Below are positions 15,741 to 61,114 of a DNA stretch of 64,000 nt, in pieces (within the stretch, counting starts at the first letter, position 1; each line of letters starts with the position of its first letter). This DNA is from a virus: IMG/VR virus record IMGVR_UViG_3300047369_000529, positions 15,083 to 79,082 of that record; one strand, 5' to 3'. The position numbers were made by a program, and so were the translations under genes. The notes beneath the pieces were generated by a model that was not told the DNA's origin, did not search any database, and was given only the letters and a program-made list of their open reading frames with translations.

Positions 15741-17249
15741 TTGATTTTAACTCTAACGGAAGACAATCAGTTTCTTAGAATAGACGAAGCTGAGGAATTA
15801 GAATTAGAGCAGATTAAAATATCTTTAACTAAAAGAATTGATAGTTGGAGATTTAATCCTCTAGTTAAAAAAGGAATATGGGACGGATATGTTTCATATA
15901 TTAAAGACGATAAGTGGATTCCTGCTGGTCTTTGGAGATATGTTATGCTCATATGTAAGGAGTATAAGTTTGACCTAAAACTCAATGGAATTCAAAGACT
16001 TTTTGATAGAAACATAAATGCAGAATCCTTTGAAGAATGGGCTTTAGAATTTTTTAAGGGTAGTAAATTTACGCCAAGAGACTATCAGGTAGAAACATCA
16101 TTTAACATTCTTAAATTTAGAAGGTGCTTAGCTGAATTAGCGACTTCAGCCGGAAAAACACTTATTAGTTTTTTAACAGTCGCATACATGTTAGAAAAAG
16201 AAAAAGCAGAAAAGATATTATTTATAGTTCCTAATGTTTCTTTAGTCGTACAGGCTCACGAAGATTTTCATGAATACAATAATAAGAATAGAATAAAACT
16301 AAAAATACAACAGATATACGCAGGTCAAAAAATAAAGTCAGATCGAAATGTAGTAATAGGTACATATCAATCTCTAGTTAAAAAATCCAAAGAATACTTT
16401 CAACAATTCGATGCAGTTATTGTAGATGAAACACACAAAGCAAAGTCCAATTCTATTAAGACGATATTACAAAAATGTACTAACGCAAAATATAAGTATG
16501 GTTTATCAGGTACAATTCCTAAAGATGGATCTTTGGACAAGTTAACGTTAATGAGTCAGACAGGTCCAGTAATCAGCGAAGTAAAAGCAAACTTTTTACA
16601 AAGAGAAGGACATATTGCAAAATGCAAAGTAAAGGTTATTGAAATGGATTATGCTCCTGAAGCAAGCAAAAAGGCATTCGAAGAATTAGCATTTAACAAG
16701 TATGATAGAAAAGATGTTTTTCAATTAGAACAAAACTATATAATTAATTCTTTTGGTAGATTAAACTTTATATGTAGCGTTATAGGAAGAGTTCCTAAGA
16801 ATTCATTGGTGTTATTTCATAGAATTGAACACGGTAAAAAAATATACGAACATCTAAGGCAAAACACTGACAAAAGAGTCTATTATGTAGACGGTGGAAC
16901 AGATAAAGATATTAGAGAAGAATATAAAAAGAAAATGGAAGCAGGTGACGAGGTAGTTATCGTCGCGAGTTATGGTACTTTCTCAACGGGTATATCAATT
17001 AAGAAAATACATAACATTTTCTTTACAGAATCTTTTAAGTCCGAGGTAATCATCAGACAGTCTATAGGTAGAGGTCTAAGACAGCATGAATCAAAAGAGG
17101 CAGTATTAATAGTTGATTTTGTAGATGACATTAGAACTGACGAATGGGACAATTATCTATATAAACATAGCAAGGCTAGACAGAAAATATATAAACAAGA
17201 GAAATTTGAGTATAGTATTAAGAAAGTCAAATTTGAAGGAGATATATAG
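15741..17249 (+). CDS. uvsW: SF2 helicase UvsW-like
   Basis: WDG, PRDYQ, ATSAGKT, VDETH, GLSGT, STGISI, QSIGRGLR. Confidence 0.92.
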   Translation: MILTLTEDNQFLRIDEAEELELEQIKISLTKRIDSWRFNPLVKKGIWDGYVSYIKDDKWIPAGLWRYVMLICKEYKFDLKLNGIQRLFDRNINAESFEEWALEFFKGSKFTPRDYQVETSFNILKFRRCLAELATSAGKTLISFLTVAYMLEKEKAEKILFIVPNVSLVVQAHEDFHEYNNKNRIKLKIQQIYAGQKIKSDRNVVIGTYQSLVKKSKEYFQQFDAVIVDETHKAKSNSIKTILQKCTNAKYKYGLSGTIPKDGSLDKLTLMSQTGPVISEVKANFLQREGHIAKCKVKVIEMDYAPEASKKAFEELAFNKYDRKDVFQLEQNYIINSFGRLNFICSVIGRVPKNSLVLFHRIEHGKKIYEHLRQNTDKRVYYVDGGTDKDIREEYKKKMEAGDEVVIVASYGTFSTGISIKKIHNIFFTESFKSEVIIRQSIGRGLRQHESKEAVLIVDFVDDIRTDEWDNYLYKHSKARQKIYKQEKFEYSIKKVKFEGDI

Positions 17250-17281
17250 AATAACGAAACAAAATTAAATTTTATAATAAA

Positions 17282-18859
17282 ATGGCAGAAATCAATAAAA
17301 TTTCTTCTTTTAAGTCTTTTACTGAGATCAGAAAACAAGAGAACGCTAATAAACTTAGAGAAGAAAATAATTTAAAAAGACAAGAGGCTGTTGGTAAAAT
17401 AGCCACTATATTAGATGAACTAGGACTAACTTCTTTTGAAGGTTTAGAAGAAGATCAAAAAGAAACAATCATCTCAAAAATATTTGGAGACGTTTCTGAA
17501 GAAGAACTTGCAGAAATTGAGGTTGAAGTTGAAAAAGAAGTTGAAGAAACGGAAGAGTCGGAAGAGCAAGTTTCAGAAGCCTTAGATATTAGATATAAGA
17601 GAGATGCTAAAAAGGTAGTAACTCAATTTAAAAAGATTTTTGCAGAGTTAGGAAGTCTAACAGCAGATAAAGTAACTTATTTAGGAGCTATTAAATATTT
17701 ATATAATGAAGCTCTAACTGATGCTAACTTTCATTCAGCGAGATCAGCTACTGAAAAAATTATTAAAGGTAGATTAAACAGTATTTCAGTTTCTCCTGAA
17801 TCTTTAGGAAAACATGCAATTATCGTTGGTGCAAAAAACATTATGAAAATTCTAGATGAATATTATTCTAGAATTTCAAATGCAGCGGGATGGTCAGGTC
17901 CTGGAATTGCTGAAGGAACAGCAATGTATTTAGAATCTATTGGTGAAGGTTCAACCGCTGAAAAATTATTAGTAGGTTTTAATGCAGCTAATGAGAGCGT
18001 TGAATACCAATTATCAGAAGAAGAAATATCATTAAAGGAGTCTAACCTTATTTTTGAAGCAACCGTTACAATGGACGCTATGAATCCTAAAGATAAAGAT
18101 TTCTTAAAATTCTTAAAGAAGAATAGCGTTAAAATTATCGATATGGTAAAATCAGGACCAACTGGTCACCCTGAAATTACTATGCAGGGTAAAAGAGAGG
18201 ATTTAGAAGCGGTATTAGCAGATGGAGAATTAGGATGGGATGATGCAGGTTTAGCAGACTATATTGAAGAGTCAGCTACAATCGTTCTTAATGAAGGAAC
18301 TAGAGGCCAATTTGGTAAAATAGACAGAAAGGGAAATATTACTTCAGTTTATACTCACTACGATTCTTACCCAGAAAATATGTTACCTATTATTAAATCA
18401 ACATTTAAAAGCGGTAAGAATGTAGATTTCGTTCTTAAGAATGGAGACAATTCAGGTCTAGATAAAGACATTAAGAAAATTAATTTCTACGGCGGAGATT
18501 CTAATTTAATGACAGGTAATATTAAGAGCATTAATGATTATATTAAAAACGCAAATTACGAAGCTGGTGCAGAATTCGTTTATTTATGGGATGAAAAATC
18601 TAAAAAATGGATGATGGCAGACATTTATGCAGAAACTGGATTAGTTCCAGCATTTGAATCTGTAGTTAACGAATCAGAAGCTGAAAATATCTTACAAGAT
18701 CTTTTAGACGAAAGAGGAGGAGACATGGGAGAATTACATGGCATGGAAATGGAAGATGCTTTAGATACAGTTGAATCTTATGGACATAAAGGTTCTAAAG
18801 CAAAAAAGATTGCACAAGAATTAGTTTCACTATGTAACGAATCCGTGGCTACTAACTAA
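17282..18859 (+). CDS. Putative internal-head polyprotein 1 (leader plus about 4 modules)
   Basis: KISSFKSFTE leader; modules bounded by VSE^A, IFE^A, LNE^G, ESVVNE^S; late promoter at 17241. Confidence 0.6.
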   Translation: MAEINKISSFKSFTEIRKQENANKLREENNLKRQEAVGKIATILDELGLTSFEGLEEDQKETIISKIFGDVSEEELAEIEVEVEKEVEETEESEEQVSEALDIRYKRDAKKVVTQFKKIFAELGSLTADKVTYLGAIKYLYNEALTDANFHSARSATEKIIKGRLNSISVSPESLGKHAIIVGAKNIMKILDEYYSRISNAAGWSGPGIAEGTAMYLESIGEGSTAEKLLVGFNAANESVEYQLSEEEISLKESNLIFEATVTMDAMNPKDKDFLKFLKKNSVKIIDMVKSGPTGHPEITMQGKREDLEAVLADGELGWDDAGLADYIEESATIVLNEGTRGQFGKIDRKGNITSVYTHYDSYPENMLPIIKSTFKSGKNVDFVLKNGDNSGLDKDIKKINFYGGDSNLMTGNIKSINDYIKNANYEAGAEFVYLWDEKSKKWMMADIYAETGLVPAFESVVNESEAENILQDLLDERGGDMGELHGMEMEDALDTVESYGHKGSKAKKIAQELVSLCNESVATN

Positions 18860-18871
18860 ACATACAATAAC

Positions 18872-19075
18872 ATGAAAAAATTAATTGAATTTATTAAAAA
18901 GGCATTTAATGCAGTTAAGACCTGGGTTGTTGCAAACGGAGTTGAAGGTGTTTTAGGCCTTATCGCTGGACTTGCCCTATGGGCGTTTGGCTATAAAATC
19001 TATGCTGGATTTGCATTTGGCGTATTTGCAACTCGTAACTGGGACCTATTTAAATCCTGGGTAAAAGGATTATAA
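18872..19075 (+). CDS. Small membrane protein
   Basis: 67 aa with hydrophobic Gly-rich segments. Confidence 0.6.
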   Translation: MKKLIEFIKKAFNAVKTWVVANGVEGVLGLIAGLALWAFGYKIYAGFAFGVFATRNWDLFKSWVKGL

Positions 19076-19139
19076 ATTAAAAAAAAAATTGGCTTATAAT
19101 TTTTCTAGGTCGATTTTTTTAATTATATTAGTAATATAA

Positions 19140-20513
19140 ATGAAACTAGATAACAACTTCGTAGACTTTATTCAGCATCATGCAGATATGCAAGGTATGA
19201 CTAGAGAAGAATATGTTGCTCATTTCTTATCAGAAAGATACGATAATAAAATTTTAACATTTGACGAATTTATCGTTGAGAAGTTTTCTAATCTACAAGA
19301 AGCTTTAATCTTAGAAGGCGGTGCTGCAGGGCATATGTCACATCCATTTGATGAGAAAGATTTAACGTTTGCAGATTTTAAAACAATAGTAAAATCAGGT
19401 CTTCAAGGAGAATTAAACTTTGAAGAAGTTGCAACAGAAAAAACAGACGGCCAAAATTTATTTGCCACCGTAAGAAACGGAGTTACTCTATTTTCTAGAA
19501 ATAAAGGCCAATTAATTAGCCCAGTCGATTTAGACGGGATTATAAAAATGTTTGAAGAGCATGAAGTTCCTTTAGTAAGAGAAACATATGTGTTTGCTGC
19601 TAAAGACCTAAATGAAGCTCTTCCAAAGATGAAGGATCAGTCTATATTTAATGAAGGTAAGAACTTTATTAATATGGAATTAATTTACTCTAAGAATCCT
19701 AATGTTATTTATTATGAAAGAGATGTTTTACAATTCCACGATATTAAGGAAACTGATGGAAATGGAAATATTATTGGAGAGCAAAAAATAGCAGGAGAGC
19801 TTGTTTCCGCATTAAAAGAAGTTGATGCTGATGTTCAAAAAACATTTACAATAATTCCCCCTCAAATATTAAAATTAGGAAAAGATATTGATTTTGAAAA
19901 AAATCATGCTAAATTTATAAAACAAATTGAAGCACTAAGAGATCGTTATAATCTAACAGATAGTGACGAGGTTTCTAGGTATCATGAAATGTGGTGGAGA
20001 GAAACTATCGATGAAAATTTCCCTAATCTACAACAAGACTATAAAGAAGGTTTATTATTAAGATGGGCCTATGGAGATAAGAAAACTCTTAACATGAGAA
20101 GTCTTGCAAAGGAAATAGGAAAAGATGAAGCAGCGGCGGTTAAGAAATTCGACAAAGAAGATGTTAAAAAGAAATATAAAGAAAACATTAGACCTTTCGA
20201 AGATTTATTTTTAGAATTAGGGTCTATAATTCTTAAAAATGCGTCCAATTTTGTAGCAGCTAATCCTGACAAAGAAATGCAAAGATTGCATAATCAGATT
20301 AGAACAGAGGCTGATAAAATTAAGAAAGGCGGAAGCGTTGCTCAGATCGAAAAGGTAATGAAAGAATTAGAGAGATTAGATAGAATTGGTGGAGTAGAAT
20401 CTATTATACCAACCGAAGGGATAGTTTTCGTATATAAAGGAAAAACTATGAAATTAACGGGTACATTTGCCGCTATTAATCAATTAATGGGCGTTATAAA
20501 GTACGGAAGATAA
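19140..20513 (+). CDS. ATP-dependent ligase-fold covalent nucleotidyltransferase (RNA-ligase-like)
   Basis: Motif I EKTDGQN, SRN, MELIY, LQFH, motif IV EGIVF, motif V KLTG; leader ILTFDEFIVE...LILE^GGAAGHM. Confidence 0.6.
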   Translation: MKLDNNFVDFIQHHADMQGMTREEYVAHFLSERYDNKILTFDEFIVEKFSNLQEALILEGGAAGHMSHPFDEKDLTFADFKTIVKSGLQGELNFEEVATEKTDGQNLFATVRNGVTLFSRNKGQLISPVDLDGIIKMFEEHEVPLVRETYVFAAKDLNEALPKMKDQSIFNEGKNFINMELIYSKNPNVIYYERDVLQFHDIKETDGNGNIIGEQKIAGELVSALKEVDADVQKTFTIIPPQILKLGKDIDFEKNHAKFIKQIEALRDRYNLTDSDEVSRYHEMWWRETIDENFPNLQQDYKEGLLLRWAYGDKKTLNMRSLAKEIGKDEAAAVKKFDKEDVKKKYKENIRPFEDLFLELGSIILKNASNFVAANPDKEMQRLHNQIRTEADKIKKGGSVAQIEKVMKELERLDRIGGVESIIPTEGIVFVYKGKTMKLTGTFAAINQLMGVIKYGR

Positions 20514-20523
20514 ATAATAAGAT

Positions 20524-22398
20524 ATGGCACTTAAAAAAATAAGACAAGTATTTCAAGAAACTAACATTAATGCATTTCAGGATCTTCTGAAAAATAGAAT
20601 TTTAGTTACTGAAAAAATACAAGGTTCATCTTTTCACGTAAGAAGAAACGTAGAAAGGTTTGAATATTTTAAATCTGGAGATATTCGTATGAATATGATA
20701 GATAGAACTATCGTAGGACTATACGAAACAGGGGTTAAACATATTCAAAGTTTAGATCCTTCAATTAAAGAAGAAATGCCAACGGATTGGAAATTTGGAT
20801 TTGAATATCTTCCTGAATTAGAAATATCACAATACAAATATACTAAACTTCCTAAGAATAATTTAATATTAACACATATACAAACGTTATCTGAGTCAGG
20901 TAAAGTTAAAAAAACTATTTATGACCCTTCTGTTTTAAACAAATGGGCAAAAAAATTAGAAGTTCAAGGACCTAGCATAGTATTTGATGGAACTTTAAAT
21001 CAAAATCAAAAAACAGAATTAATAAATCTTTTATCTATGTCAGATAAAGAATTTGTAGAGTCGTTTGACTATGATAGATCTACGGATTTTAAAACTTCAT
21101 TTACACAGAAAATAATAAAGATTTTTAATCCAAATCAAACTTCACCAATATTGAATGAAGATTTTGAGGTTGAGATTGATGGTCTAATAATTTCATTTAT
21201 AGACGGAAAGAAAGTAAAATCTTTTAAATTAGAAGACTTTACTAGAAACAACGAGAGCAACTCTAAGGAATCTAGTCACATGTATCAGATTACTATAGCT
21301 GATCTAATCGAATATCTTTCTTCATTTGACATGAACTCTGTTCAACTAAACGAAGAAACAGCAGATCTTAGGTACATTGAATTAATGTCCGTTATATTTA
21401 ATAAATATGTAAATGAAAATTCTACTAAATTTATAGGAGTTAACTTTGAATCAGCCGACTTTGCAAGCCATAGCGTATTTAAACTAAATAGTAAATACAT
21501 TAAAAACGAAACCACACTTTCTTTAGTGGAAAACGAAATACTTTCAGAATTATTTAAAATAACGCTCGGATCTTTTAGAAAAAAGAGAAATAAAGAAAGC
21601 GATATTCTAAATAAAGAAATGATAGAGCATTTAAATAATATAGTAGAAGAAATAGATAAAAAGATATTCGTTGAAAACACCGACGAAAATTCAATATATG
21701 ACTTTAACAATTTTATATTACATAACAAAGTAAAGACTAGTGTTAATTTAAATGAAGCGCTTAAGGTAGATCATCCTGAACAAGGAGGAGAATTAGTAAA
21801 TATGTTTGTTGGTAGATTCCAACCATTTACACTTGGACATGCTAAAGTATTAGAAACTATACACAAAGAAAATGGATATCCTGTTGTAGTATTATTAGTC
21901 AAAGCAAAGAATAAGAAAAAAGAAGACGCTTTTAAAAGACCTTATGATGAAAAAACGCAACTTAAGATGTTTAAGGCGGTTCAAAAACAATATCCATTCC
22001 TAAAAGAAATTTTTGTAATTCCAACAGGAGGTATTGATACTATGTTCAATGCAATGAGACCTAAATATGAACCTGTATTATGGGGAACAGGAAGTGATAG
22101 AATGAAAACTTACGGATTCCAAGTAAATAAAGATTCTTATAGAGAAGATCTTGGAGTTAGAAGCGACTTTAGATTATTTGAAATTCCAAGAACAGATGAT
22201 AATATTTCAGCGACTCAGGTTAGAAACGCAATGCTAGACGGAGATGAAGGATTATTTAAGTCAACAACACCCAAAGCATTACATAAAATGTATGGCGAAC
22301 TTAAGAAAAAATTAGAAGATTCAGTAGGTACTTCAGAATCAAATGAAGTTGCTGAATCATTATTAACATTTAAACAATTTTTAGAAAACAATGGATAG
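20524..22398 (+). CDS. Fusion of variant ligase-fold domain and HIGH-superfamily nucleotidyltransferase (cytidylyltransferase/NMNAT-like)
   Basis: N-terminal EKIQGSSF...DGLII...FKL; linker VNLNE^A; GRFQPFTLGH, GSDR, ISATQVR; C-terminal LLTFKQFLE. Confidence 0.7.
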   Translation: MALKKIRQVFQETNINAFQDLLKNRILVTEKIQGSSFHVRRNVERFEYFKSGDIRMNMIDRTIVGLYETGVKHIQSLDPSIKEEMPTDWKFGFEYLPELEISQYKYTKLPKNNLILTHIQTLSESGKVKKTIYDPSVLNKWAKKLEVQGPSIVFDGTLNQNQKTELINLLSMSDKEFVESFDYDRSTDFKTSFTQKIIKIFNPNQTSPILNEDFEVEIDGLIISFIDGKKVKSFKLEDFTRNNESNSKESSHMYQITIADLIEYLSSFDMNSVQLNEETADLRYIELMSVIFNKYVNENSTKFIGVNFESADFASHSVFKLNSKYIKNETTLSLVENEILSELFKITLGSFRKKRNKESDILNKEMIEHLNNIVEEIDKKIFVENTDENSIYDFNNFILHNKVKTSVNLNEALKVDHPEQGGELVNMFVGRFQPFTLGHAKVLETIHKENGYPVVVLLVKAKNKKKEDAFKRPYDEKTQLKMFKAVQKQYPFLKEIFVIPTGGIDTMFNAMRPKYEPVLWGTGSDRMKTYGFQVNKDSYREDLGVRSDFRLFEIPRTDDNISATQVRNAMLDGDEGLFKSTTPKALHKMYGELKKKLEDSVGTSESNEVAESLLTFKQFLENNG

Positions 22399-23470
22399 GT
22401 ACGATTTTGAAAGAGCACTACATAGTGCTGCAAAAACCAATGCTGAAAATGAAGCGTTAATTATAGAATCCTATATTGGAGTTGCAACGACCGGAAGTAA
22501 ATCTGCCCAACAGAATTTATTTAATTCAATTAATAGAACATTTAAAAAGAATAAGTGTCCATGGCAAGGTGTTAAGTTTACTTCAACACAGGATGTTAAA
22601 CAACAACCTGATGGTAGGTTATGGCTTTCTAAAATGGATGACGATACATTCGGAGTAGTTTTTCAATATTTAATGTTAAATAAAAGCGAAGCAAACGAAT
22701 TGTTTAATATTGGAAGAGACGATAATGGAATTGGTGCTGGAGAAATAATGCTAGCGTATATTGTAGAAAATATAAAAATAGGTGGAGGTGCGGCCGATAC
22801 TGACTTAGAATTATATAATGAAAGGTGGTCACCAATTAAACCACCCCTTGGTAAATGTGAGTTAAAAGAAGCTCAAATGTCAAAGGGCATGTTACAAAAT
22901 TGGAGAACAGGTGCAAAACACCAGGGAATTAATAGTACTTATGTACCGAAGTTAACGGCATTATATGACGCAGTAAAATATAATATTGAAGAAATCAACC
23001 CGGACGGAGATGGTAAAGATATGGCTGCCGGTGGAGGTTGGATAAATGAATGGGGAACTGTAGGTGGAAAAAGATTTAAGCATATTCAAAATTTAACTAA
23101 GACAGATATTCAGGCCCTTTCTTCTAGTGAAAGAGATTTTAAAATAGGTCCTGGAGATAAAGATAACGGCGCATTAGTAATTAAATTTAATGACGTAGAA
23201 TTAGGAAAGCTAAGTGACTCTAAAACTGCAGAAAAAATTAAAAGTATAATAGAGACTGAGCCTTCCGTTAGAACATTTACTGAAATACAAGACGATGTAA
23301 TTTCAGCAGTAGGAGATATACCTACTCCATTCCTTTTTATAGAGTCTAAAGATCATGAAATAGTAGCTTTTCACTATTACAAGAAATTACCTGGAAAAAC
23401 TAGCGAATTACAAATATATTCTATTACACAAGGTAAATTTAAATATAAAATAAAGCCTAACCGAGTTTAA
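22391..23470 (+). CDS. Putative PD-(D/E)xK nuclease-fold protein
   Basis: GAGEIML...GGGAADTDL...CELKEA pattern; leader ending LIIE^S. Confidence 0.4.
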   Translation: MDRYDFERALHSAAKTNAENEALIIESYIGVATTGSKSAQQNLFNSINRTFKKNKCPWQGVKFTSTQDVKQQPDGRLWLSKMDDDTFGVVFQYLMLNKSEANELFNIGRDDNGIGAGEIMLAYIVENIKIGGGAADTDLELYNERWSPIKPPLGKCELKEAQMSKGMLQNWRTGAKHQGINSTYVPKLTALYDAVKYNIEEINPDGDGKDMAAGGGWINEWGTVGGKRFKHIQNLTKTDIQALSSSERDFKIGPGDKDNGALVIKFNDVELGKLSDSKTAEKIKSIIETEPSVRTFTEIQDDVISAVGDIPTPFLFIESKDHEIVAFHYYKKLPGKTSELQIYSITQGKFKYKIKPNRV

Positions 23471-23490
23471 ATAAACAAATACAAATAAAA

Positions 23491-26118
23491 ATGAGCACTA
23501 AAAAAACATTTGAAAGCTTTGTAAATTCAATGAATGAAAACGTTGATTTATATAAAGTATATAAAAGAGTTTCTGGAAAATACTCTTTAAGAAAACCTTC
23601 TTATTGGGGAGATCTATTTAATCAAAGAGCTTCTATCCCGTTAAAAGAATTAAGTAAATATTCTTCTGAATTAGATTCATTAGAAGTCTATACTACTAAA
23701 GAATTAGGATGTCATCCAGATTATCCTATGCAATCAAATTTTAAGGTTCAAGTTCCTCAAGTATTCGTACTATATTGTAATACTGAAAGGGGCGAATTAG
23801 GAGAGTATTATGGAATGTCAATTCTTGTAAATACTGAAGGTGCAACATATCCAAGATATGCATGTGGTATGCCAGATTTCGAACCAGAACTTCATAACTT
23901 TGCAAATGGAATTCCTGAAAGCTATTTAAATATTGTAACAACAGGTGCTCAAATGTTACATGAAAAAATGATAGCTGAAGGTCAATTCTCATGGATGACA
24001 CAAGATACTGGAGATCAGATTGGTTCAGAACCTCAAAATAAAATAGACGTTTACATGTACGACAACCAGGGTAATTCTTGGAAAGAAAGAGACTATGAAG
24101 GCTATGGAGAATTTGGCGGTATGGATTACTATGACTTAGTTGCAACTATGAACGGATATACTGAAGAAGACGTTAAAACAATGAAAGGTTCATTTAAAGA
24201 ATTAAGACAACTTGGTATCGATTTAGCGTTTGGTAAAATAAAAACTAAAGATAAAAAGCGCAAAACTCTTTTTCCAGCTTTAGTCACAGATCCTAGGTAT
24301 AATTGGAAAAGACATGATTTTACTCAAGAAGCAGAATCAGATCCAAACCAATCATGGTATCAAGAGCCTGAGTATGACGATTATGAAGATGAATATGATG
24401 ATTTCTACAATGAAAAAGAAATCAAGGGTAAAGCTGCCGGCAACTCTATAAAGATGGCACCAGCAGGTAGAACTATTGAAATCAATGGTATCACTTACAC
24501 ATGCCTTGGTAAAGGTAAGTGGGAAGGACCTGATGGCGAAAAAGTAAATTGGATTGAAGTTTCTGCTATGGCATCAGCATTAGGAAACAAGAAAGTTGTA
24601 TATGAATATGATGGCTATGAGTCAGTAGTTACTGAAGCTAAAGGAGATTTAAAAGTAGGAGATAAGGGTATAGATTATAATGATAATGTTGTAAAAATAA
24701 TTGCTATTGGTAATTTTAAGAAAATTGCTAAAATGTTTAAGAAAGAAATGAAAGCAGACGCAGCTGATTGGGGCTACGAAGAAGGAGCTGGAGATTTCTA
24801 TCTTGCTAAAAACATAGAAGCGACTGAAGGTAATGTTGGAGATTTAGCAATTTATCCAGTAAAATACGACATGGCTAACTACTGGGGTTTAGATAAACTA
24901 GATGAATCATCAGTTACTGAAAACTATGAAGTTATTTATAGCGACGGCGTAAGTGCTATGAAAAAGTTTAGAAGCGAGAAACAAGCACTAGACTTTATGA
25001 AGAAAACTATCTCTTCTAATAAAAAACTAAGAGATATTGCAGTTTACAAACCAGGAATGTATTCAACTACTCAAACTGAACTAGTTGTTAAATTCTGGGG
25101 AGATGGTTCTTATTTAGATAACGTTTCTAAAAAAGATAAAGATTTAGCTTCTAAAAAACTAGAAGAATCTACCTTAAATGAAGCTCGTTCTATTAACAAG
25201 ATTTCAAAGGAGTTTGGAGAAACGGTTAATAAAATGAAAGATATAGTTAAAGTATATGTTGCTGCTGAAGAAGGAAGTGATGAAAAATCAAAATTAAGAC
25301 AACAATTAATTGATTTAACAGCAAAGAAAAAGTCTTTAACTAAAGAATTAGACGACGCCGTAGCTGGAAAAAACAAAGATGTAAAATTAGTTATAACAGA
25401 AGGTGTAATGTCAAATATTCATTTGATGGCATCCGATTCTAAAAACTGGGATGATTTCTTAAAAAAGTTTAAGAAAGATTATAAGAAAGTATTTCAAAAT
25501 ACACCTGACTTTATGGATTGGTTATATGGCATGTATAAGGATATGGCTCCTTTAAAAGCAGGCGAAAAAGTAGAAGAAAAATATAACAAGAAAAAGTTAT
25601 TAAAAGCAATTAAGAATAAAGACGACATGTTTATTCAGTTAGGAGATGGTACTGAACTAATAGTTTATAACCCGGATTCTAATAATGACGACAATGCAGA
25701 AATGTGGCACGATGATGTGGTATTTGCGATCGATCAAGACGGAGAAGAACATGAGGTTAAATACTCAGATATTGCAGGTATTGGTGAATCTGTAGTTTCT
25801 GAATCTAAAATTCAAATAAAAAGAAAGTATACAGACAAGCATCCAGCAAAAACAGCTGGAAGATCTGCAAGGGTTAGAAACGCAATGATAGAAGCTCTTT
25901 CGGATGGAATATTAACAGAAGAAGAATTCAATAATATTTTAAAAGAAAAATCTATTGACAGTAAAAGATGGATGAGAAGAAATTCTAGATTTTTTATGGT
26001 AAGTGAAGAAGGAATCAAGCTTTCTAAATATGGAAAAAGAATTTTTAAAGAAATTACGAATAAGCAAGTAGTTAACTTAACTCTAGAATCTTTTATAAAG
26101 GATATATACAATAAATAA
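23491..26118 (+). CDS. Putative internal-head polyprotein 2 (about 9 modules)
   Basis: MSTKKTFESFVNSMNE leader; linkers IAE^G, FYNE^K, ESVVTE^A, ESSVTE^N, ESTLNE^A, ITE^G, VEE^K, ESVVSE^S; C-terminal LTLESFI. Confidence 0.65.
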   Translation: MSTKKTFESFVNSMNENVDLYKVYKRVSGKYSLRKPSYWGDLFNQRASIPLKELSKYSSELDSLEVYTTKELGCHPDYPMQSNFKVQVPQVFVLYCNTERGELGEYYGMSILVNTEGATYPRYACGMPDFEPELHNFANGIPESYLNIVTTGAQMLHEKMIAEGQFSWMTQDTGDQIGSEPQNKIDVYMYDNQGNSWKERDYEGYGEFGGMDYYDLVATMNGYTEEDVKTMKGSFKELRQLGIDLAFGKIKTKDKKRKTLFPALVTDPRYNWKRHDFTQEAESDPNQSWYQEPEYDDYEDEYDDFYNEKEIKGKAAGNSIKMAPAGRTIEINGITYTCLGKGKWEGPDGEKVNWIEVSAMASALGNKKVVYEYDGYESVVTEAKGDLKVGDKGIDYNDNVVKIIAIGNFKKIAKMFKKEMKADAADWGYEEGAGDFYLAKNIEATEGNVGDLAIYPVKYDMANYWGLDKLDESSVTENYEVIYSDGVSAMKKFRSEKQALDFMKKTISSNKKLRDIAVYKPGMYSTTQTELVVKFWGDGSYLDNVSKKDKDLASKKLEESTLNEARSINKISKEFGETVNKMKDIVKVYVAAEEGSDEKSKLRQQLIDLTAKKKSLTKELDDAVAGKNKDVKLVITEGVMSNIHLMASDSKNWDDFLKKFKKDYKKVFQNTPDFMDWLYGMYKDMAPLKAGEKVEEKYNKKKLLKAIKNKDDMFIQLGDGTELIVYNPDSNNDDNAEMWHDDVVFAIDQDGEEHEVKYSDIAGIGESVVSESKIQIKRKYTDKHPAKTAGRSARVRNAMIEALSDGILTEEEFNNILKEKSIDSKRWMRRNSRFFMVSEEGIKLSKYGKRIFKEITNKQVVNLTLESFIKDIYNK

Positions 26119-26130
26119 AAACTATAGAAA

Positions 26131-27960
26131 ATGAAACTATATACTAACTTCGATAATTTTATCAATGAAGCAAAGGTTATGAAGCAGAAAGATACTGCTA
26201 AAATAGCACAAAAATTAGCATCGGCTCTTTCAAAGGCAGATGGCAAAGAATTTACAATTTCTAAAGATTCATTAGATGCTGGAGGATGGGATCTAGATAT
26301 GGATGGAGAAGAATTCGCAGGTGGAACTTATTTTATTGGAGATGCTGGAGAAATAGTAAACGCAGCAACAAGTAATGACGTATATGGTCACATGGACGAC
26401 AGTGAAGCTGAATTAGTTAAAAAGATTAAAAAGGGTAAATTTGCAAAATACAGAGCAACTGAATCAGTAGTTAACGAAGCATCTCTTTCGGGTGTAGAAT
26501 TTGGAAACGATGACGACATTCACCCAACTAAATTTAAACCTTTAACTACATCTTTAAAGAAGAATAAAGTTAAAATGGAAGTTGAAAAAGAAGAAGGTTA
26601 CCATGGCTACCCAGAAGTTAAATTAACGGGTAAAAGAAAGGACATCGAAAAGGTTTTAGCTGATGTATGGGGACCAGACTCAATCTCTGACTATGAAGAT
26701 TATTTTGAATCCAAAGTTAATGAAGCTAGATTTAAAAAAGGACAATACATTAAAGCCACTGCCGATAGCGATGATTTTGATGGAGATGTTTACGATGTAA
26801 CTAACGACGTAGATGGTAGTACGATTTACAAAGATTCATCATTCGAAATTTATGGAATTAATAGAAATGAAGTTATTCTTTGGAGTGACGAGGATGAAGT
26901 AGAATACTCAATAGATCCGGATGATCTTAAACATTTTGTTAAAGAATCATTAGATATTGAACTTAATGAAGCTCTTAAGTCTTCTAAACTAAGAAACTTA
27001 ATAGACATAAGACAGGGTGGTAAGCAACTAATGCAGGGTATATATGGTCTTGCTAAAGTAGCATTAGATAAAGTAACCGACGACATGGTTATCACTAATT
27101 CAAATCCAGTTGAAGTTTATAAGAAAGCAAAAACATACGGAAATGTATTAGTATTTTGGATTTCTAGAAACGAAAAGGAAAATCCTTACACACCTAGAAA
27201 TAGTTATGGTGGAAAAGATATTATTCCAGGAAATACCTTATTAGCAGTCTCAAATGGTAAAAACGAAATGTTTGACAATCATGCTGCATATACTAGAGAG
27301 TATGTGGATGGAAAACAAAGAAGTAAAACTACAAGATCTTTAAAGAATAGAGGAAGATACCCTGGTTCTAAAGACACTGTTGGGGTAGATAAATCTCATA
27401 GTACATGGAGTGGAACAGGCTTAGGAAATATTAAAAGAATCGCAGAGGTTTCAGACGAATGTTACATTATTAATTTAGACGCTGTTAGAGATAGACTTTC
27501 TACAAGTAATAAAGTATCGCAAAGATTTTCTCAAAAAGCCGATGCTACCGCTTTTGATAATCCAAAAGATATTAAACAAGCAAACATCACTAAATATCAA
27601 TCAATTTTAGCACAAAGAGCAGATAATCCAGATAAAATAGACAAACAAGTTAAAGAAATTATTGAAGATGCTCATCAATTCTTAATGGCCGGTTTAGCTA
27701 AAAAAGAAATGGGAGACTATAATGAATTATCAATAGGAAAAGATCCTAAAGGAAGAGATATTAAACCTAGAGATTTAACCAATTATATTTCAAATATATT
27801 GTCAGATTATCAAGGATATGTTTCGGCATACGTTAATGCAAAAACTGAAGAAGAAAAATATGGAACTTCAAGCGATTGGTATAAAAGAGATGCTAAACGT
27901 AAAGCTCTAGAGCTTAAGCAGCGAATGGCTAAATGGGATAACAAGAACATAGTTTGGTAA
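26131..27960 (+). CDS. Putative internal-head polyprotein 3 (4 modules)
   Basis: MKLYTNFDNFINE^A leader; ESVVNE^A, ESKVNE^A, ELNE^A linkers; late promoter at 26101. Confidence 0.65.
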   Translation: MKLYTNFDNFINEAKVMKQKDTAKIAQKLASALSKADGKEFTISKDSLDAGGWDLDMDGEEFAGGTYFIGDAGEIVNAATSNDVYGHMDDSEAELVKKIKKGKFAKYRATESVVNEASLSGVEFGNDDDIHPTKFKPLTTSLKKNKVKMEVEKEEGYHGYPEVKLTGKRKDIEKVLADVWGPDSISDYEDYFESKVNEARFKKGQYIKATADSDDFDGDVYDVTNDVDGSTIYKDSSFEIYGINRNEVILWSDEDEVEYSIDPDDLKHFVKESLDIELNEALKSSKLRNLIDIRQGGKQLMQGIYGLAKVALDKVTDDMVITNSNPVEVYKKAKTYGNVLVFWISRNEKENPYTPRNSYGGKDIIPGNTLLAVSNGKNEMFDNHAAYTREYVDGKQRSKTTRSLKNRGRYPGSKDTVGVDKSHSTWSGTGLGNIKRIAEVSDECYIINLDAVRDRLSTSNKVSQRFSQKADATAFDNPKDIKQANITKYQSILAQRADNPDKIDKQVKEIIEDAHQFLMAGLAKKEMGDYNELSIGKDPKGRDIKPRDLTNYISNILSDYQGYVSAYVNAKTEEEKYGTSSDWYKRDAKRKALELKQRMAKWDNKNIVW

Positions 27961-28716: not shown

Positions 28717-29034
28717 ATGAAACAAGTAAAACTATATGAGCAATTTATAAATGAATCAGCAATTGATACTTTAGCTACTGAAATTGATGATGCTAAAGTT
28801 TATGATGCTGTTTCGGATGGAGGTTCTGTTGACGCAAGATCTACTAAAAAAACATGGGACGATGGTGTTCCAGTTTTAAAGTATATTGCTAGAGCTCCAA
28901 AAAAATCTGTTAAATTACCTAAGAAATTTAAAGTAGTAGACGACACTAAATATGGATGGTGGTATTTACAAGTATCAGGAGTATGGTATGGAATCGAACA
29001 AGATGATTATGGAACTCCACCATTTGAATATTAA
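28717..29034 (+). CDS. Putative internal head protein (single module)
   Basis: MKQVKLYEQFINE^S resembles the T4 capsid-targeting sequence MKTYQEFIAE. Confidence 0.65.
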   Translation: MKQVKLYEQFINESAIDTLATEIDDAKVYDAVSDGGSVDARSTKKTWDDGVPVLKYIARAPKKSVKLPKKFKVVDDTKYGWWYLQVSGVWYGIEQDDYGTPPFEY

Positions 29035-29037
29035 GAT

Positions 29038-31044
29038 ATGGAATTAAACGAAAACGAAAACTTATCACTTGGCGATATGGCCGGAATGGGAGAAGTCTCT
29101 TTACCATCTGAAACATCAGTTGGATCAGGGGATATTCCAGCCGGAAAAGGAGATGCCGAAGAAGAGTATAAGAAGAAGAGAAATAAAAAGAAACAACGCG
29201 AAATGAAAAACATTATATCATTTGAATCTTTCGGATCACTTGATGAAGGTAAAACAATATCTTCTTCTAAAATATCTATGATGGGTGCAAGAGTTCTTAA
29301 TAAAATTAGCATCGGTACCATATTTGATACAGAAGATGGAAACTATGAAATTACGGATTATGGCCGACAGGCAAATGCATTTAAAGAATTTGAAGCAGAA
29401 CATAATGGTAAAAAAGTAAAGGTAAAATTAACTGCAATGTATGGTGTTAAGTTAGAAGTAACTGACGATGTACGCAGCGCTAGATTTAATAAAGAAGTAA
29501 AGCTAAATTCTATTATTTTAGAATCGGTTAATGAAGGTAAGTTTGACGGTATTGCAGATTTAGTAAAATCTTTACATTTCGAAATGGATCCTAAAACCGC
29601 AGAAGAAAAGAAAATCGAACTAGGTAAAAGACAAGGTGAAGTTTCAAGAAGAAAGCAAATTGAAGGTGGTGAATATTCACTAAGAAGATTTAGAAAAGAG
29701 ATTAAATACGATGAGACCGGAGAAGATCTTGGTGTATTTAAACCCGGTAGCTATATGGCTGCTACTTCTATATTAGGCGATGGTCCACATAAGAAAGCCG
29801 TTAAGAAAGTAAGATGGAATAGAAAGAAATACGATCAATGGATTGAAGATATGGCAGCTAACGATGGTTGGAAGAATGCATTCGATATGGCACAAAATGC
29901 TAAACACGAACCAGGTCTATTACAATGGGCTAAGAAAGAATTTAGAGGTGAAGACGTAATGCAAAGAATTCAATGGGATATTGAAGGTTACGCAGAATCA
30001 GTAGTTACTGAATCTATTAGTAAATCTACTAAAATACATTGTATCGCAACACCAGCTCCTAAGTCAATGCTTAAGGATGAGTTAGAAGAATTATTCGGAG
30101 ATGATTATAGAAATATAGTTACAGAAGTTCAAGACGATGAAGGTTATGAATCAGTGTTAGTATTTAATCTTACTAAAAGAGACATTAAATTAATAGAAGA
30201 TAATATTGGAGATGTATTAATCTGGGAATATTCAATTAAACCAGGTAAATTAATTAATGAATCAGTAGTTAACGAAGCTGAAAAGTATATCACTGATAAA
30301 TTTAAAGTAGGTGATAAAATTAAAACTAATTTTGGTGAATGGGAAGTAATTGAAACTGATTATGCACCTAAAAAGAGTTTTATAGCACCTTTTATATTTA
30401 AAGGAAAGAATATAGAAAGAGTAAACATACCTAATCCACCTAAAACTAACAAGAATGCGGTAGGTTACAAAGTAACAGACGGTGCTAAATATCCAACTAT
30501 TGGTTTCTTATATCAATATAAAGATATTACTAAACTTGCAACAGTTGGCGTTGATGAATCAATAGTTACTGAAGCTGAAAGTGTAAAGGTAGGAGAATAT
30601 ATTAAAACTCAATACGGTTATTTCTATAAAAGAGTCGACGGTAAAGTTGGAGGACAAGAAGCTTTCGTTGAAATAAAGAAAGGAAAAGAAGGAAAGAGAA
30701 AAACAAGTATTCATGATACAGTTAGCTTTGAAATAGTTGATAAAGATGCTGCATTCGAATCATTGGTTACCGAAAAGAAACACGATAGAGAAGATACTAT
30801 AAAATTCATAAAGAAATACATGAGATTCGTAAAAACCACTGAAGAATTTAATGGTTCTCAGGGTGGTATATGGGTTTCAGGTGAAGATGGAGATGAATAT
30901 AAAGGAGTAACAATCTATGATTACTATACGTCTGGTAAATCATATGAATTAGGTGTAAATATAAAGTGGGAAAAAGAGTTAAATGAAAGAGGATGGTACA
31001 GCGAATGGTATGATGCAGGAACTGTAATGATCTGGGAAATATAA
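29038..31044 (+). CDS. Putative internal-head polyprotein 4 (leader plus about 6 modules)
   Basis: Internal MKNIISFESFGSLDE^G; linkers ESVNE^G, ESVVTE^S, ESVVNE^A, ESIVTE^A, ESLVTE^K. Confidence 0.65.
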   Translation: MELNENENLSLGDMAGMGEVSLPSETSVGSGDIPAGKGDAEEEYKKKRNKKKQREMKNIISFESFGSLDEGKTISSSKISMMGARVLNKISIGTIFDTEDGNYEITDYGRQANAFKEFEAEHNGKKVKVKLTAMYGVKLEVTDDVRSARFNKEVKLNSIILESVNEGKFDGIADLVKSLHFEMDPKTAEEKKIELGKRQGEVSRRKQIEGGEYSLRRFRKEIKYDETGEDLGVFKPGSYMAATSILGDGPHKKAVKKVRWNRKKYDQWIEDMAANDGWKNAFDMAQNAKHEPGLLQWAKKEFRGEDVMQRIQWDIEGYAESVVTESISKSTKIHCIATPAPKSMLKDELEELFGDDYRNIVTEVQDDEGYESVLVFNLTKRDIKLIEDNIGDVLIWEYSIKPGKLINESVVNEAEKYITDKFKVGDKIKTNFGEWEVIETDYAPKKSFIAPFIFKGKNIERVNIPNPPKTNKNAVGYKVTDGAKYPTIGFLYQYKDITKLATVGVDESIVTEAESVKVGEYIKTQYGYFYKRVDGKVGGQEAFVEIKKGKEGKRKTSIHDTVSFEIVDKDAAFESLVTEKKHDREDTIKFIKKYMRFVKTTEEFNGSQGGIWVSGEDGDEYKGVTIYDYYTSGKSYELGVNIKWEKELNERGWYSEWYDAGTVMIWEI

Positions 31045-59743: not shown

Positions 59744-61114
59744 ATGGCAAATTTAATTAACTCTGCAGAAGTTAGAGAAACTTGGGCTCCGATCATCGAA
59801 TCAGCTACAGGTATCAACGAAGCAGAAAAACTAGCGTGGATGTCAGAATACTGTCATAACCACAAACTTTACGAAGATGCTCACATCATGTCTTTAGGGA
59901 CTGCTGGTAACATCTACGGTATGGGCCCTGCTACATTACCTTCAGTTGACGCTAACGGTAATGCAGTAAACGGTTCAGGTGATAAAGCTCCAACTTTATT
60001 ACCATTAGCAATGCAAGTTGCTGCACAAACTATCGGTTTAGACTTAGTACCAGTTGTACCAATGGCTGGACCAATGGGTCTTTTATCTTACTTAGACTTC
60101 GTTTACGAAGGTGGTAAAATAGCTGGTACTACTGCTCCAACTTACGTAAAAGCTTCTGCTGCTCCAAATGACGGTAGAGATGCAATAGGTGAGTCAAGAT
60201 TAGATGGTATGTCAATCTATGACGTTTCTGACGTTTCAGGTACTATCTCTGCTGCTTTCCCAGACGACACTAATATCGAATTAGTAAAAGCTTTAGAAGA
60301 CCACATTAAAGGTTTTGCTGCTGCTGATAAGGATGGTAATCCATTCTCAAGAGAAGCTGGTGAACAGACTCCTGACAACATCATGGGTCTTTCTTTATTC
60401 TCAAAAAGTGTTGCTGCTGAAACTTTCCAAGTTGCTGCTGCAGTTACTAGAGAGCAAGTACAAGATTTAAAACAATTCGGTGTTGACGCTGTTGCTCAAG
60501 TTGAGTCAGTATTAACTAACGAATTAACTCAGTCAATCAACAACTTAATCTTAGCTAAACTTAATTCTTTAGGTAAAACTAACGTTACTCAATCAGGTGC
60601 TTCTTTAGACTTAAACTTAGGTCAAGGTGCATTAGGTGGTGAGACTATCGCTTCTAACCATAGAAGAATCTTAACTTCAATCCTTGCTGCTGCGAACTTT
60701 ATCGCAAACAGAGGTAGAAGAGGTGCAGGTAACTTCTGTGTTGTAGGTCCTAAAGTGGCTACAGCTTTACAATCAGTTGCTGGTTTCGTTGCTAACCCAA
60801 TGGCTAACACATTATCACAAGCAGCAGGTGCAATCTACCCAGTAGGTTCTGTAGCTGGTGTAAATATCTACACTGACCCAAGACAAGAATGGGACAATGC
60901 TAACGGTTACGAAGTAGTAGTTGGTAGAAAAGGTGACGGTAATGGTCCTGGATTAGTATTCATGCCTTACTTAATGGCTGAATCAGTACAAACAATCGCT
61001 GAAGGAACTATGGCTCCTAAAGTTGCTGTTAAATCTAGATTCGCATTAGTTGAAGCAGGTTTCCACCCAGAAACTCAATATGTTACATACTTAATCGAAG
61101 GTTTATCTCTTTAA
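59744..61114 (+). CDS. 23: Major capsid protein (gp23-like)
   Basis: WAPIIE, LVPVVPMAGPMG, EQVQDLK, ELTQSIN, RRGAGNF, FMPY, SRFAL. Confidence 0.93.
   Translation: MANLINSAEVRETWAPIIESATGINEAEKLAWMSEYCHNHKLYEDAHIMSLGTAGNIYGMGPATLPSVDANGNAVNGSGDKAPTLLPLAMQVAAQTIGLDLVPVVPMAGPMGLLSYLDFVYEGGKIAGTTAPTYVKASAAPNDGRDAIGESRLDGMSIYDVSDVSGTISAAFPDDTNIELVKALEDHIKGFAAADKDGNPFSREAGEQTPDNIMGLSLFSKSVAAETFQVAAAVTREQVQDLKQFGVDAVAQVESVLTNELTQSINNLILAKLNSLGKTNVTQSGASLDLNLGQGALGGETIASNHRRILTSILAAANFIANRGRRGAGNFCVVGPKVATALQSVAGFVANPMANTLSQAAGAIYPVGSVAGVNIYTDPRQEWDNANGYEVVVGRKGDGNGPGLVFMPYLMAESVQTIAEGTMAPKVAVKSRFALVEAGFHPETQYVTYLIEGLSL

What the first reader, a model, noticed from the sequence alone, without database searches (positions are those of the whole stretch)
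18296..24414. Modules begin where free-standing homologues would have Met: Glu replaces the start codon
Seen: LNE^GTRGQFG...SVYTHYDSYPE (18296) and IAE^GQFSWMTQDT...YEGYGEFGGMDYY (23980). From recall, these resemble stand-alone phage proteins starting M(S/G)TR...Y.H.DGYP and MGFFSW...YEGYG.FGG.DYY. Inference: whole genes were captured into the polyproteins, and cleavage regenerates the native N-terminal Gly, which may be functionally required. If the family matches hold, this is the strongest internal support for the cleavage model.
Basis: partly seen in the sequence, partly recalled or inferred. Interest (0 to 1): 0.75.

Follow-up and report, generated by a model that had tools for sequence, protein, structure and literature searches.

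The report
Phage cargo modules start at Met
In an uncultured T4-like phage, two modules inside long multi-module proteins begin exactly where their many stand-alone relatives have the start Met, which here is replaced by the Glu of a T4-type prohead-protease site, so whole small genes seem to have been built into cleavable, capsid-targeted polyproteins.

Summary
Module 1 starts at G339 of ORF 17282-18859 (nt 18296). Module 2 starts at G164 of ORF 23491-26118 (nt 23980). Each follows a [L/I]-x-Glu junction.

- **Module 1:** among 135 informative family representatives, the residue before the first module residue is Glu in 101 (embedded in proteins of 98-1036 aa, with I/L/V/M at P3). It is the initiator Met in 34 short proteins (105-194 aa). 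No other residue occurs.
- **Module 2:** 106 of 109 close relatives carry [L/I/V/M]-x-E before GQFSW. A separate stand-alone family gave 2349 hits, and 114 of the 118 inspected start MG[Q/L/F]FSW.
- **Genome context:** the genome encodes a T4 gp21-type protease fused to a scaffold. Its capsid protein carries INE^AE (T4 gp23: LTE^AE). Leaders such as MKQVKLYEQFINE^ resemble the T4 capsid-targeting sequence MKTYQEFIAE^.

Best reading: capsid-targeted polyproteins are cut by the prohead protease, releasing modules with their native N-termini. Cleavage itself is inferred, not shown.

Trees suggest about one capture per family, not many. The native N-terminus is Gly only for module 2; stand-alone module 1 relatives mostly start Ser or Ala. 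The function of both modules is unknown. The scan's first readers noted this polyprotein stretch before, on this same genome. This is a new variant of a known kind.

The parts
17282..18859 (+). Modular ORF (525 aa) that holds module 1. Its N-terminus MAEINKISSFKSFTE is loosely CTS-like. Predicted junctions lie at E338 (LNE^G) and E464 (ESVVNE^S).
   Evidence: relatives carry the same leader type MxKLKSFDQF...
18287..18295 (+). P3-P1 codons CTT AAT GAA (Leu-Asn-Glu338). The Glu takes the place of the start Met of stand-alone homologues.
18296..18673 (+). Module 1 (G339-E464), a member of phrog_1987, function unknown. Its last six residues ESVVNE are the next linker.
   Evidence: AF2 model pLDDT 90.2, with residues 124-129 below 50, i.e. 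a disordered linker.
23491..26118 (+). Modular ORF (875 aa) that holds module 2. Predicted junctions lie at E163, E308 (FYNE), E382, E477, E564, E637 and E771.
   Evidence: Homology blocks shared with other phages' polyproteins break at or near E163, E564, E637 and E771.
23971..23979 (+). P3-P1 codons ATA GCT GAA (Ile-Ala-Glu163). This is the same I-A-E triplet as the T4 IPII/IPIII cleavage site.
23980..24414 (+). Module 2 (G164-E308): a GQFSW...YEGYGEFGGMDYY core plus an acidic tail ending FYNE. No Pfam or PHROG family and no PDB fold match.
   Evidence: AF2 model pLDDT 85, tail residues 131-147 about 50.
26131..27960 (+). Modular ORF (609 aa) with the leader MKLYTNFDNFINE^A, close to the T4 capsid-targeting sequence, and linkers ESVVNE^A, ESKVNE^A and ELNE^A.
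28717..29034 (+). Small ORF (105 aa) with the leader MKQVKLYEQFINE^S, the closest match in the window to the T4 leader MKTYQEFIAE^A.
29038..31044 (+). Modular ORF (668 aa) with seven listed junctions (NE^N, VNE^G, ESVVTE^S, INE^S, ESVVNE^A, ESIVTE^A, ESLVTE^K).
57552..59591 (+). Prohead protease (Peptidase_S77, T4 gp21-like) fused to a scaffold-like region. The His and Ser align with T4 gp21 H85 and S140. Motif sites follow the protease domain (RVNE166^S), recur as xxAE^ repeats every 14 residues, and occur near the C-terminus (TVNE652^A).
59744..61114 (+). Major capsid protein (gp23-like) with an N-terminal ...ATGINE26^AEKLAW. T4 gp23 has ...SFLTE65^AEIGG.
17240..17248 (+). AGATATATA motif 42 nt upstream of the ORF 17282 start. 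The same motif lies upstream of the protease gene (57521) and a fibre-like gene (4901). It is a candidate late promoter.
   Evidence: 7 matches, all on the + strand, 2.3 expected

Best explanation
The window comes from an uncultured T4-superfamily phage. ORFs 17282, 23491, 26131 and 29038 are read here as polyproteins of capsid-delivered cargo.

Proposed mechanism:
1. An N-terminal leader of the T4 capsid-targeting type takes the precursor into the prohead core.
2. The gp21-like prohead protease, encoded at 57552, then cuts after Glu in [L/I/V]-x-E sites that lie in disordered linkers between folded modules.
3. Each module is released separately inside the head, presumably for ejection into the host together with the DNA.

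Modules 1 and 2 are whole small phage genes that elsewhere stand alone. In this lineage the ATG was replaced by the P1 Glu of a protease site. Cleavage would therefore yield the same N-terminus that Met removal gives the stand-alone protein: Gly/Ala/Ser-Thr-Arg for module 1 and Gly-Gln-Phe-Ser-Trp for module 2.

Shown here: the exact register, the conservation of the junction, the protease gene and the matching motifs in head proteins. Inferred: the cleavage itself, packaging, ejection and the direction of evolution. What the two modules do is unknown.
For: (1) Register. P1 is Glu (101) or the initiator Met (34), and nothing else, for module 1. For module 2 it is Glu in 106 and Met in 3 close relatives, plus 114 of 118 inspected members of a stand-alone family of 2349 hits. 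Annotated or forced start codons confirm it.

(2) Junction conservation. P3 is I/L/V/M in 101 of 101 (module 1) and 106 of 106 (module 2) embedded copies, while P2 varies. The leaders upstream are unrelated and range from 3 to 656 residues.

(3) Selection acts on the peptide. Seven codons are used at P3 and eight at P2, and P1 is GAA or GAG, in 35 distinct junction DNAs.

(4) Protease. PF03420 scores 42.6 bits, over its cut-off, and phrog_207 gives E 3.9e-40. The protein aligns to T4 gp21 across H85 and S140.

(5) The same motif occurs in expected substrates of that protease: capsid protein INE^AE against T4 gp23 LTE^AE, 14-residue AE repeats in the scaffold part, and RVNE^S after the protease domain.

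(6) Leaders MKQVKLYEQFINE^S and MKLYTNFDNFINE^A resemble T4 IPII/IPIII MKTYQEFIAE^A, read from NC_000866. In T4, CTS residues 4 and 7 target and residues 8 and 10 direct processing (PMC9026906).

(7) Motif enrichment is confined to the modular ORFs: 22 sites against 5.6 +/- 2.3 expected, while other ORFs show 29 against 29.5.

(8) The linkers are predicted to be disordered.

(9) Homology blocks between polyproteins of different phages break at the predicted sites.

(10) ORF 17282 shares an upstream motif with the protease and fibre genes.
Against: - There are no protein data, so cleavage, packaging and ejection are not shown.
- Trees indicate only about one switch of state per family. The exact register therefore rests on two independent events, plus its later conservation.
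- The leaders of ORF 17282 (SSFKSFTE) and ORF 23491 (KKTFESFVNSMNE) fit the T4 CTS less well than those of 26131 and 28717. ORF 29038 and some relatives (the 8-residue leader MRINKINE) have no CTS-like leader.
- The polyprotein genes sit among replication genes, not in the head-gene cluster, and ORF 23491 has no copy of the upstream motif.
- Several linkers in the window are also near-identical as DNA (GAA TCA GTA GTT AMY GAA). A role as recombination joints is therefore possible as well.
Confidence: 0.7

Rival explanations
1. The ORFs are ordinary uncleaved multidomain proteins. The ES-V-V-N/T-E stretches are flexible linkers kept similar because they serve as DNA joints for domain shuffling. 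The Met/Glu register is then only a by-product of fusing a whole gene behind such a linker.
For: Several linkers inside the window share 15-18 nt of near-identical DNA. Homology blocks break at the linkers, as shuffling by recombination would also predict. There are only about two switches of state per family.
Against: Across phages the junction is conserved as a peptide property, not as DNA: seven codons at P3, eight at P2, Glu invariant. Very short leaders such as MNE|G, MKNINE|S and MRINKINE|G are not domains and make sense only as propeptides. The same motif sits at the capsid protein N-terminus and in the scaffold, and matches the T4 gp21 site type. Leaders copy the T4 CTS, which is itself a cleaved propeptide.
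Confidence: 0.15
2. The polyproteins are cleaved at these sites in the cytoplasm, by a protease other than the prohead protease or by the gp21-like enzyme outside the capsid. The modules then act as ordinary intracellular early or middle proteins and are never packaged.
For: The genes lie among replication genes (primase 13994, helicase 15741, ligase-like 19140). Stand-alone relatives sit in early-gene-like regions of other phages. Some polyproteins lack a clear CTS.
Against: No second protease was seen near the cluster, although not every ORF of the window was scanned. The site type and the leaders are those of the T4 prohead system. In T4, ip genes are also scattered among early genes.
Confidence: 0.1
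3. The long ORFs are assembly or gene-calling artefacts (chimeric contigs, or read-through of separate small genes).
For: The source is a metagenomic viral contig with an estimated completeness of 28%.
Against: The same architectures recur in dozens of independent IMG/VR contigs of up to 294 kb and in many protein clusters from several sources. The frames are open for 525-875 codons with no stops.
Confidence: 0.02

Closest known systems
T4 internal proteins IPI/IPII/IPIII and Alt: capsid-targeting sequence (CTS) cargo processed by prohead protease gp21 (Mullaney & Black 1996, as reviewed in PMC9026906; PMC12373910)
   Same: N-terminal leader of the form aromatic-x-x-Phe-Ile-x-Glu, cut after Glu. 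A gp21-family S77 protease is in the genome. The L/I-x-E site type is also present in the capsid protein and the scaffold. The cargo is unrelated, fast-evolving small proteins. Laboratory CTS fusions show that any whole protein can be packaged and released this way.
   Different: In T4 each internal protein is a single cargo behind a 10-19 residue leader. Here up to about seven unrelated modules are strung together in one ORF with internal sites, and the cargo modules have large stand-alone families in other phages. No processing data exist for this phage.
Polyvalent proteins of phages and conjugative elements (Iyer et al. 2017, PMC5512222)
   Same: Many unrelated domains in one polypeptide, predicted to be delivered with the DNA. 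Solo versions of the same domains exist. Release of the domains by proteolysis is proposed.
   Different: Those proteins carry their own embedded peptidase (a zincin-like MPTase) and known enzymatic domains. None was detected here. Release here would depend on the prohead protease acting in trans at a short linear motif.
Inner-body and ejection proteins of giant phages phiKZ, 201phi2-1 and SPN3US, processed by gp21-like proteases (PMC5694885, PMC9026906)
   Same: Head-internal proteins are cut after Glu at a three-residue motif, often at several sites per protein. Propeptides are thought to target the protein to the prohead.
   Different: The motif there is (S/A/G)-x-E, or A-x-E in SPN3US. Long propeptides are discarded, rather than several folded modules being released. 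No array of captured stand-alone genes has been reported there.
phrog_1987 (uncharacterised phage protein family)
   Same: Module 1 matches over nearly the whole profile (E 1.3e-11, profile positions 2-118 of 128). Members include proteins of T4-like cyanophages and Streptococcus prophages that start M-[A/S/G]-T-R.
   Different: The members checked here (three phage records; 34 short representatives) are stand-alone proteins of about 105-194 aa. Here the module is internal to a 525-aa ORF and preceded by LNE.

Membership tests
T4-type CTS cargo (internal proteins) processed by gp21 | A gp21-family (Peptidase_S77) prohead protease is encoded by the phage | tested here: met
   PF03420 at 42.6 bits, over its cut-off. 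phrog_207 at E 3.9e-40. BLASTP to T4 gp21 at E 3e-10, covering H85 and S140.
T4-type CTS cargo (internal proteins) processed by gp21 | N-terminal leader of about 10-19 residues with the targeting and processing pattern of MKTYQEFIAE (residues 4 and 7 target; residues 8 and 10 direct processing) | tested here: inconclusive
   The pattern is clear in ORF 26131 (MKLYTNFDNFINE) and ORF 28717 (MKQVKLYEQFINE) when compared with the T4 sequences. The two ORFs that hold modules 1 and 2 have looser versions (SSFKSFTE; KKTFESFVNSMNE). ORF 29038 has none.
T4-type CTS cargo (internal proteins) processed by gp21 | Cleavage after Glu in an L/I-x-E site | not testable with these tools
   The sequence motif is present and conserved (P3 is I/L/V/M and P1 is Glu in 207 of 207 embedded copies). 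No protein data are available.
T4-type CTS cargo (internal proteins) processed by gp21 | The protein is present inside the mature head and is ejected into the host | not testable with these tools
   The phage is uncultured and no virion proteome exists.
phrog_1987 | Significant full-length match to the family profile | tested here: met
   E 1.3e-11, module residues 1-111 to profile positions 2-118 of 128. tblastn hits to 36 phage records.
Polyvalent proteins (Iyer et al. 2017) | Embedded processing peptidase (MPTase or similar) and characteristic conflict domains in the same polypeptide | tested here: not met
   No Pfam or PHROG peptidase or enzyme domain was found in ORFs 17282, 23491, 26131 or 29038, at E up to 1 for the modules of 17282 and 23491 and up to 0.05 for those of 26131 and 29038.
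phiKZ-type inner-body proteins | Cleavage motif (S/A/G)-x-E, and homology to inner-body protein families | tested here: not met
   P3 is I/L/V/M, never S/A/G, at the two junctions across 207 copies. No family match was found.

The most novel reading that the evidence does not exclude
A lineage of uncultured T4-like phages (genomes up to about 294 kb) has a general cassette mechanism. It converts ordinary stand-alone accessory genes into pre-made, virion-delivered proteins by swapping the start codon for the Glu of a prohead-protease site and stringing the genes into CTS-led polyproteins. Modules are then shuffled between polyproteins at the linkers. This would be a natural counterpart of the laboratory T4 expression-packaging-processing system.
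Probability: 0.55. Interest if true: 0.8.

Novelty: new variant of a known kind. Interest (0 to 1): 0.66.

Why it matters
If the junctions are cut, this phage group delivers a whole set of unrelated proteins into the host at the moment of injection, from only a few genes. It would also show a simple evolutionary route (ATG replaced by L/I-x-Glu) by which any small gene can be recruited to that set.

This gives a sequence rule for finding injected phage proteins in metagenomes, and injected proteins are prime candidates for counter-defence functions. It defines the specificity of a distant gp21-type protease without an experiment. It also points to two large uncharacterised phage protein families, one without any recognisable fold, as proteins that are useful very early in infection.

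The exact register with stand-alone homologues makes the model directly testable: the predicted N-termini are GTRGQFGK... and GQFSWMTQ....

Tried and rejected
- **Cultured relatives:** megablast of 17000-26200 against GenBank phages gave no match. tblastn of module 2 and of two stand-alone members against GenBank phages also gave no match. The stand-alone module 2 family was therefore seen only in metagenomes and MAGs.
- **Families for module 2:** Pfam and PHROG scans found nothing for module 2 or its stand-alone relatives.
- **Other modules:** the remaining modules of ORFs 23491, 26131 and 29038 gave only weak PHROG or Pfam hits, so the Met/Glu test could not be extended beyond two families.
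- **Fold searches:**
  - Module 2 had no PDB match by Foldseek (best E 1.7) or by the wide VIA search (best Z 2.2).
  - Module 1 had no PDB match either (best E 0.23; best Z 4.0, rmsd 4.7, 82 residues aligned).
  - In BFVD, module 1 matched only uncharacterised phage proteins.
- **ESM Atlas:** it gave no functional lead.
- **T4 late promoter:** the consensus TATAAATA is not enriched (15 matches against 14.4 expected).
- The genomic context of P0068, P0122 and P0129 could not be read. Loci from the search for related loci were used instead.
- **2A-like 'stop-go' peptides and inteins** were considered and dropped. The linkers have no NPGP-type or intein motif. This is by inspection of the output only.

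Full report
**What is there.** All genes in the window but one lie on the + strand, and G+C is about 32%. The window belongs to a 79-kb IMG/VR virus record with an estimated completeness of 28%. PHROG and Pfam scans show a T4-superfamily phage, with these genes:
- primase and a UvsW-like helicase;
- DNA polymerase, ribonucleotide reductase, an SbcC-like gp46 and a clamp loader;
- gp4-like head closure protein, gp2-like end protector and portal;
- a head maturation protease and the major head protein.

Between the helicase and the sugar-nucleotide genes lie four long ORFs without known domains: 17282-18859, 23491-26118, 26131-27960 and 29038-31044. In these, a linker of the form E-S-[V/I/L]-V-[N/T]-E recurs. 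There are 11 copies of E[ST].[VIL][NTS]E in the modular ORFs, against one in the other 52 ORFs. The shorter [ILV][NT]E occurs 22 times against 5.6 +/- 2.3 expected. The other ORFs show 29 against 29.5, so there is no enrichment elsewhere.

**The observation.** They read LNE338|G339TRGQFG..., with the G codon at 18296, and IAE163|G164QFSW..., with the G codon at 23980.

**Module 1.**
- It matches phrog_1987 at E 1.3e-11. Its first residue falls on profile position 2.
- tblastn finds it in 36 GenBank phages, namely T4-like cyanophages and Streptococcus prophages. All 30 matches listed start at query residue 1.
- In the three records inspected, the annotated CDS begins exactly one codon upstream, giving MATRARLG, MATKARIG and MGTRSRIG.
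- The exhaustive HMMER search of 1.84 billion representatives gave 278 hits. I re-aligned the best 150 locally.
- Of 135 informative rows, 101 have Glu before the module. These are proteins of 98-1036 aa, with the module 3 to 635 residues from the start. P3 is I (63), L (27), V (10) or M (1).
- The other 34 rows are short proteins of 105-194 aa in which that position is the initiator Met. No other residue occurs there.

**Module 2.**
- It has no Pfam or PHROG family.
- Among close relatives of similar length, 106 of 109 read [L/I/V/M]-x-E|GQFSW and three start MGQFSW.
- The 106 leaders have 61 different N-termini and are 15-120 residues long.
- In 80 IMG/VR loci the module always follows Glu. 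It sits behind leaders of 8 to 656 residues, inside ORFs that continue for up to 948 residues from the module start.
- A profile of two stand-alone members then found 2349 short proteins. Of the 118 listed, 114 start MG[Q/L/F]FSW, and their median length is 124 aa.
- In four loci from genome assemblies, the ATG is the first Met after an in-frame stop 3-29 codons upstream. Neighbours in the two loci scanned include HNH endonucleases, an exonuclease and a repair protein, so these look like phage DNA.

**Why a protease site.**
- ORF 57552-59591 carries Peptidase_S77 and aligns with T4 gp21 across its His85 and Ser140. That these two are the catalytic residues is from my memory of the literature.
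- It is fused to a long acidic scaffold-like part. In that part, x-x-A-E recurs every 14 residues (YLAE^K, YLAE^N, HIAE^G, YLAE^S). An RVNE^S site follows the protease domain and a TVNE^A site lies near the end.
- The capsid protein starts MANLINSAEVRETWAPIIESATGINE^AEKLAW. T4 gp23, read from NC_000866, has ...SFLTE^AEIGG at its known maturation site.
- T4 IPII and IPIII start MKTYQEFIAE^A. The window has MKQVKLYEQFINE^S (28717) and MKLYTNFDNFINE^A (26131). Many relatives of both modules start MKxIKxF[E/D]xF[I/L/V]NE.
- In T4, CTS residues 4 and 7 direct targeting and residues 8 and 10 direct processing. The leader suffices to package foreign proteins (PMC9026906).
- The junction of module 2 in this window, I-A-E, is the same triplet as in the T4 leader.

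**Peptide, not only DNA.**
- In 35 distinct junction DNAs of module 2, P3 uses seven codons, P2 uses eight, and P1 is GAA (30) or GAG (5). What is conserved is therefore the hydrophobic P3 and the Glu.
- AlphaFold models are confident for both modules (pLDDT 90 and 85). Confidence drops below about 50 in the linker residues, as expected for accessible sites.
- tblastn of the window's polyproteins against the other phages' loci gives homology blocks that start or end at or near E163, E564, E637 and E771 of ORF 23491. The same holds for E338 and E464 of ORF 17282, E116 and E198 of ORF 26131, and E166, E325, E512 and E579 of ORF 29038.
- Very short leaders (MNE|G, MKNINE|S, MRINKINE|G) are hard to explain other than as propeptides.

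**Limits and corrections.**
- On maximum-likelihood trees of each family, the label 'embedded' or 'stand-alone' needs only two changes, against 26-30 for shuffled labels. One origin is not excluded. The 207 embedded copies are therefore not independent captures.
- The independent evidence is two events with an offset of exactly zero, plus strict later conservation of the site.
- The direction of change is inferred from three points, and the trees are unrooted:
  1. Stand-alone forms are more numerous.
  2. Stand-alone forms occur in unrelated phages: Streptococcus siphophages, cyanophages, and structural relatives in Campylobacter, Cronobacter and Yersinia phages.
  3. The embedded state is confined to one side of a split.
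- One stand-alone module 2 protein (P0068) has a sequence like the embedded copies, so it may be a reversal.
- 'Native Gly' is correct for module 2, where Gly is invariant in both forms. For module 1, stand-alone proteins have Ser, Ala or Gly in the ratio 21:11:2, and embedded copies have Gly, Ser or Ala in the ratio 82:10:9.
- All these residues allow removal of the initiator Met (established knowledge of methionine aminopeptidase specificity). Both routes should therefore give a small residue followed by Thr-Arg. The shift to Gly looks like a P1' preference of the protease.
- Whether a free N-terminus is needed was not tested.

**Expression.** AGATATATA occurs seven times, all on the + strand, against 2.3 expected. 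It lies 13-42 nt upstream of ORF starts. These include ORF 17282, the protease gene, a fibre-like gene and a small CTS-like ORF. Looser copies precede ORF 26131, the portal gene and ORF 61237. This fits co-expression with head genes but is only a consensus match. ORF 23491 has none.

**Function of the modules.** Function is unknown for both. No PDB fold was found for either. Module 1 resembles only uncharacterised phage proteins, and the ESM Atlas gave no lead.

**Comparison with what is known.**
- The system works like the T4 CTS/gp21 system. It meets the sequence-level tests for it: protease family, site type and leader type in two ORFs.
- It differs in stringing several unrelated modules into one precursor.
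- It resembles the 'polyvalent proteins' of Iyer et al. (PMC5512222) in logic but lacks their embedded peptidase.
- It differs from phiKZ-type inner-body proteins in the motif: I/L/V at P3 here, S/A/G there.
- Full-text searches found no report of CTS-led polyproteins.
- First-stage notes of this scan had already flagged the polyprotein cluster, the CTS-like motifs and the linker DNA on this same genome. I tested parts of these here.

**Verdict.** Cleavage remains an inference, at about 0.7. This is a new variant of a known kind.

Noticed in passing
window 28717-31044: ORF 28717-29034, which has the best CTS-like leader, and the CTS-less modular ORF 29038-31044 are in the same reading frame. 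They are separated only by TAA and one codon (...FEY * D M...). This could be chance (one in three), or a read-through or recent split of one polyprotein.
   Followed up: no
window 4901, 11589, 12726, 17240, 49760, 52061, 57521: AGATATATA occurs 7 times, all on the + strand (2.3 expected), 13-42 nt upstream of ORF starts. These include the prohead protease, a fibre-like gene and polyprotein ORF 17282. Looser copies precede the portal gene, ORF 56695, ORF 26131 and ORF 61237. It is a candidate late promoter, different from T4's TATAAATA, which is not enriched.
   Followed up: partly
window 57552-59591: The prohead protease is fused to a scaffold-like region of about 500 residues. That region has 14-residue repeats, each ending in x-A-E, and long acidic runs. 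In T4 the protease (gp21) and the scaffold (gp22) are separate genes.
   Followed up: partly
window 19140-22398: ORF 19140 has a KxDG-like motif (EKTDGQN) and a leader-like N-terminus (ILTFDEFIVE, then ALILE|GGAAGH). ORF 20524 ends in a cytidylyltransferase-like domain (PF01467) and in ...LLTFKQFLENNG. These enzymes between the two polyproteins may also carry targeting or cleavage motifs.
   Followed up: no
window 18017-18295 and 26560-26724: A small paralogous module precedes the linker in two different polyproteins: HPEITMQGKREDLEAVLADGELGWDD... in ORF 17282 and YPEVKLTGKRKDIEKVLADVWGPDS... in ORF 26131. The second matches phrog_5922 weakly (E 5.9e-05).
   Followed up: partly
proteins P0268, P0212; locus L035 around 4001: Some relatives have minimal leaders before the module (MNE|GTK..., MKNINE|STH..., MRINKINE|GQFSW). 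These are too short for a T4-like targeting sequence, so targeting may sometimes rest on other modules, or such genes may be intermediates between the stand-alone and embedded states.
   Followed up: no
window 61237-62613: This 458-aa ORF after the capsid gene starts MKTFEQWYKAFTE^S. It has LTE^S and INE^S sites, a hydrophobic stretch (NPMTAVIMQDPIIMGAIIGLTAITGAVIG) and a long charged coiled region, with no PHROG match. It may be another processed head-internal protein.
   Followed up: no
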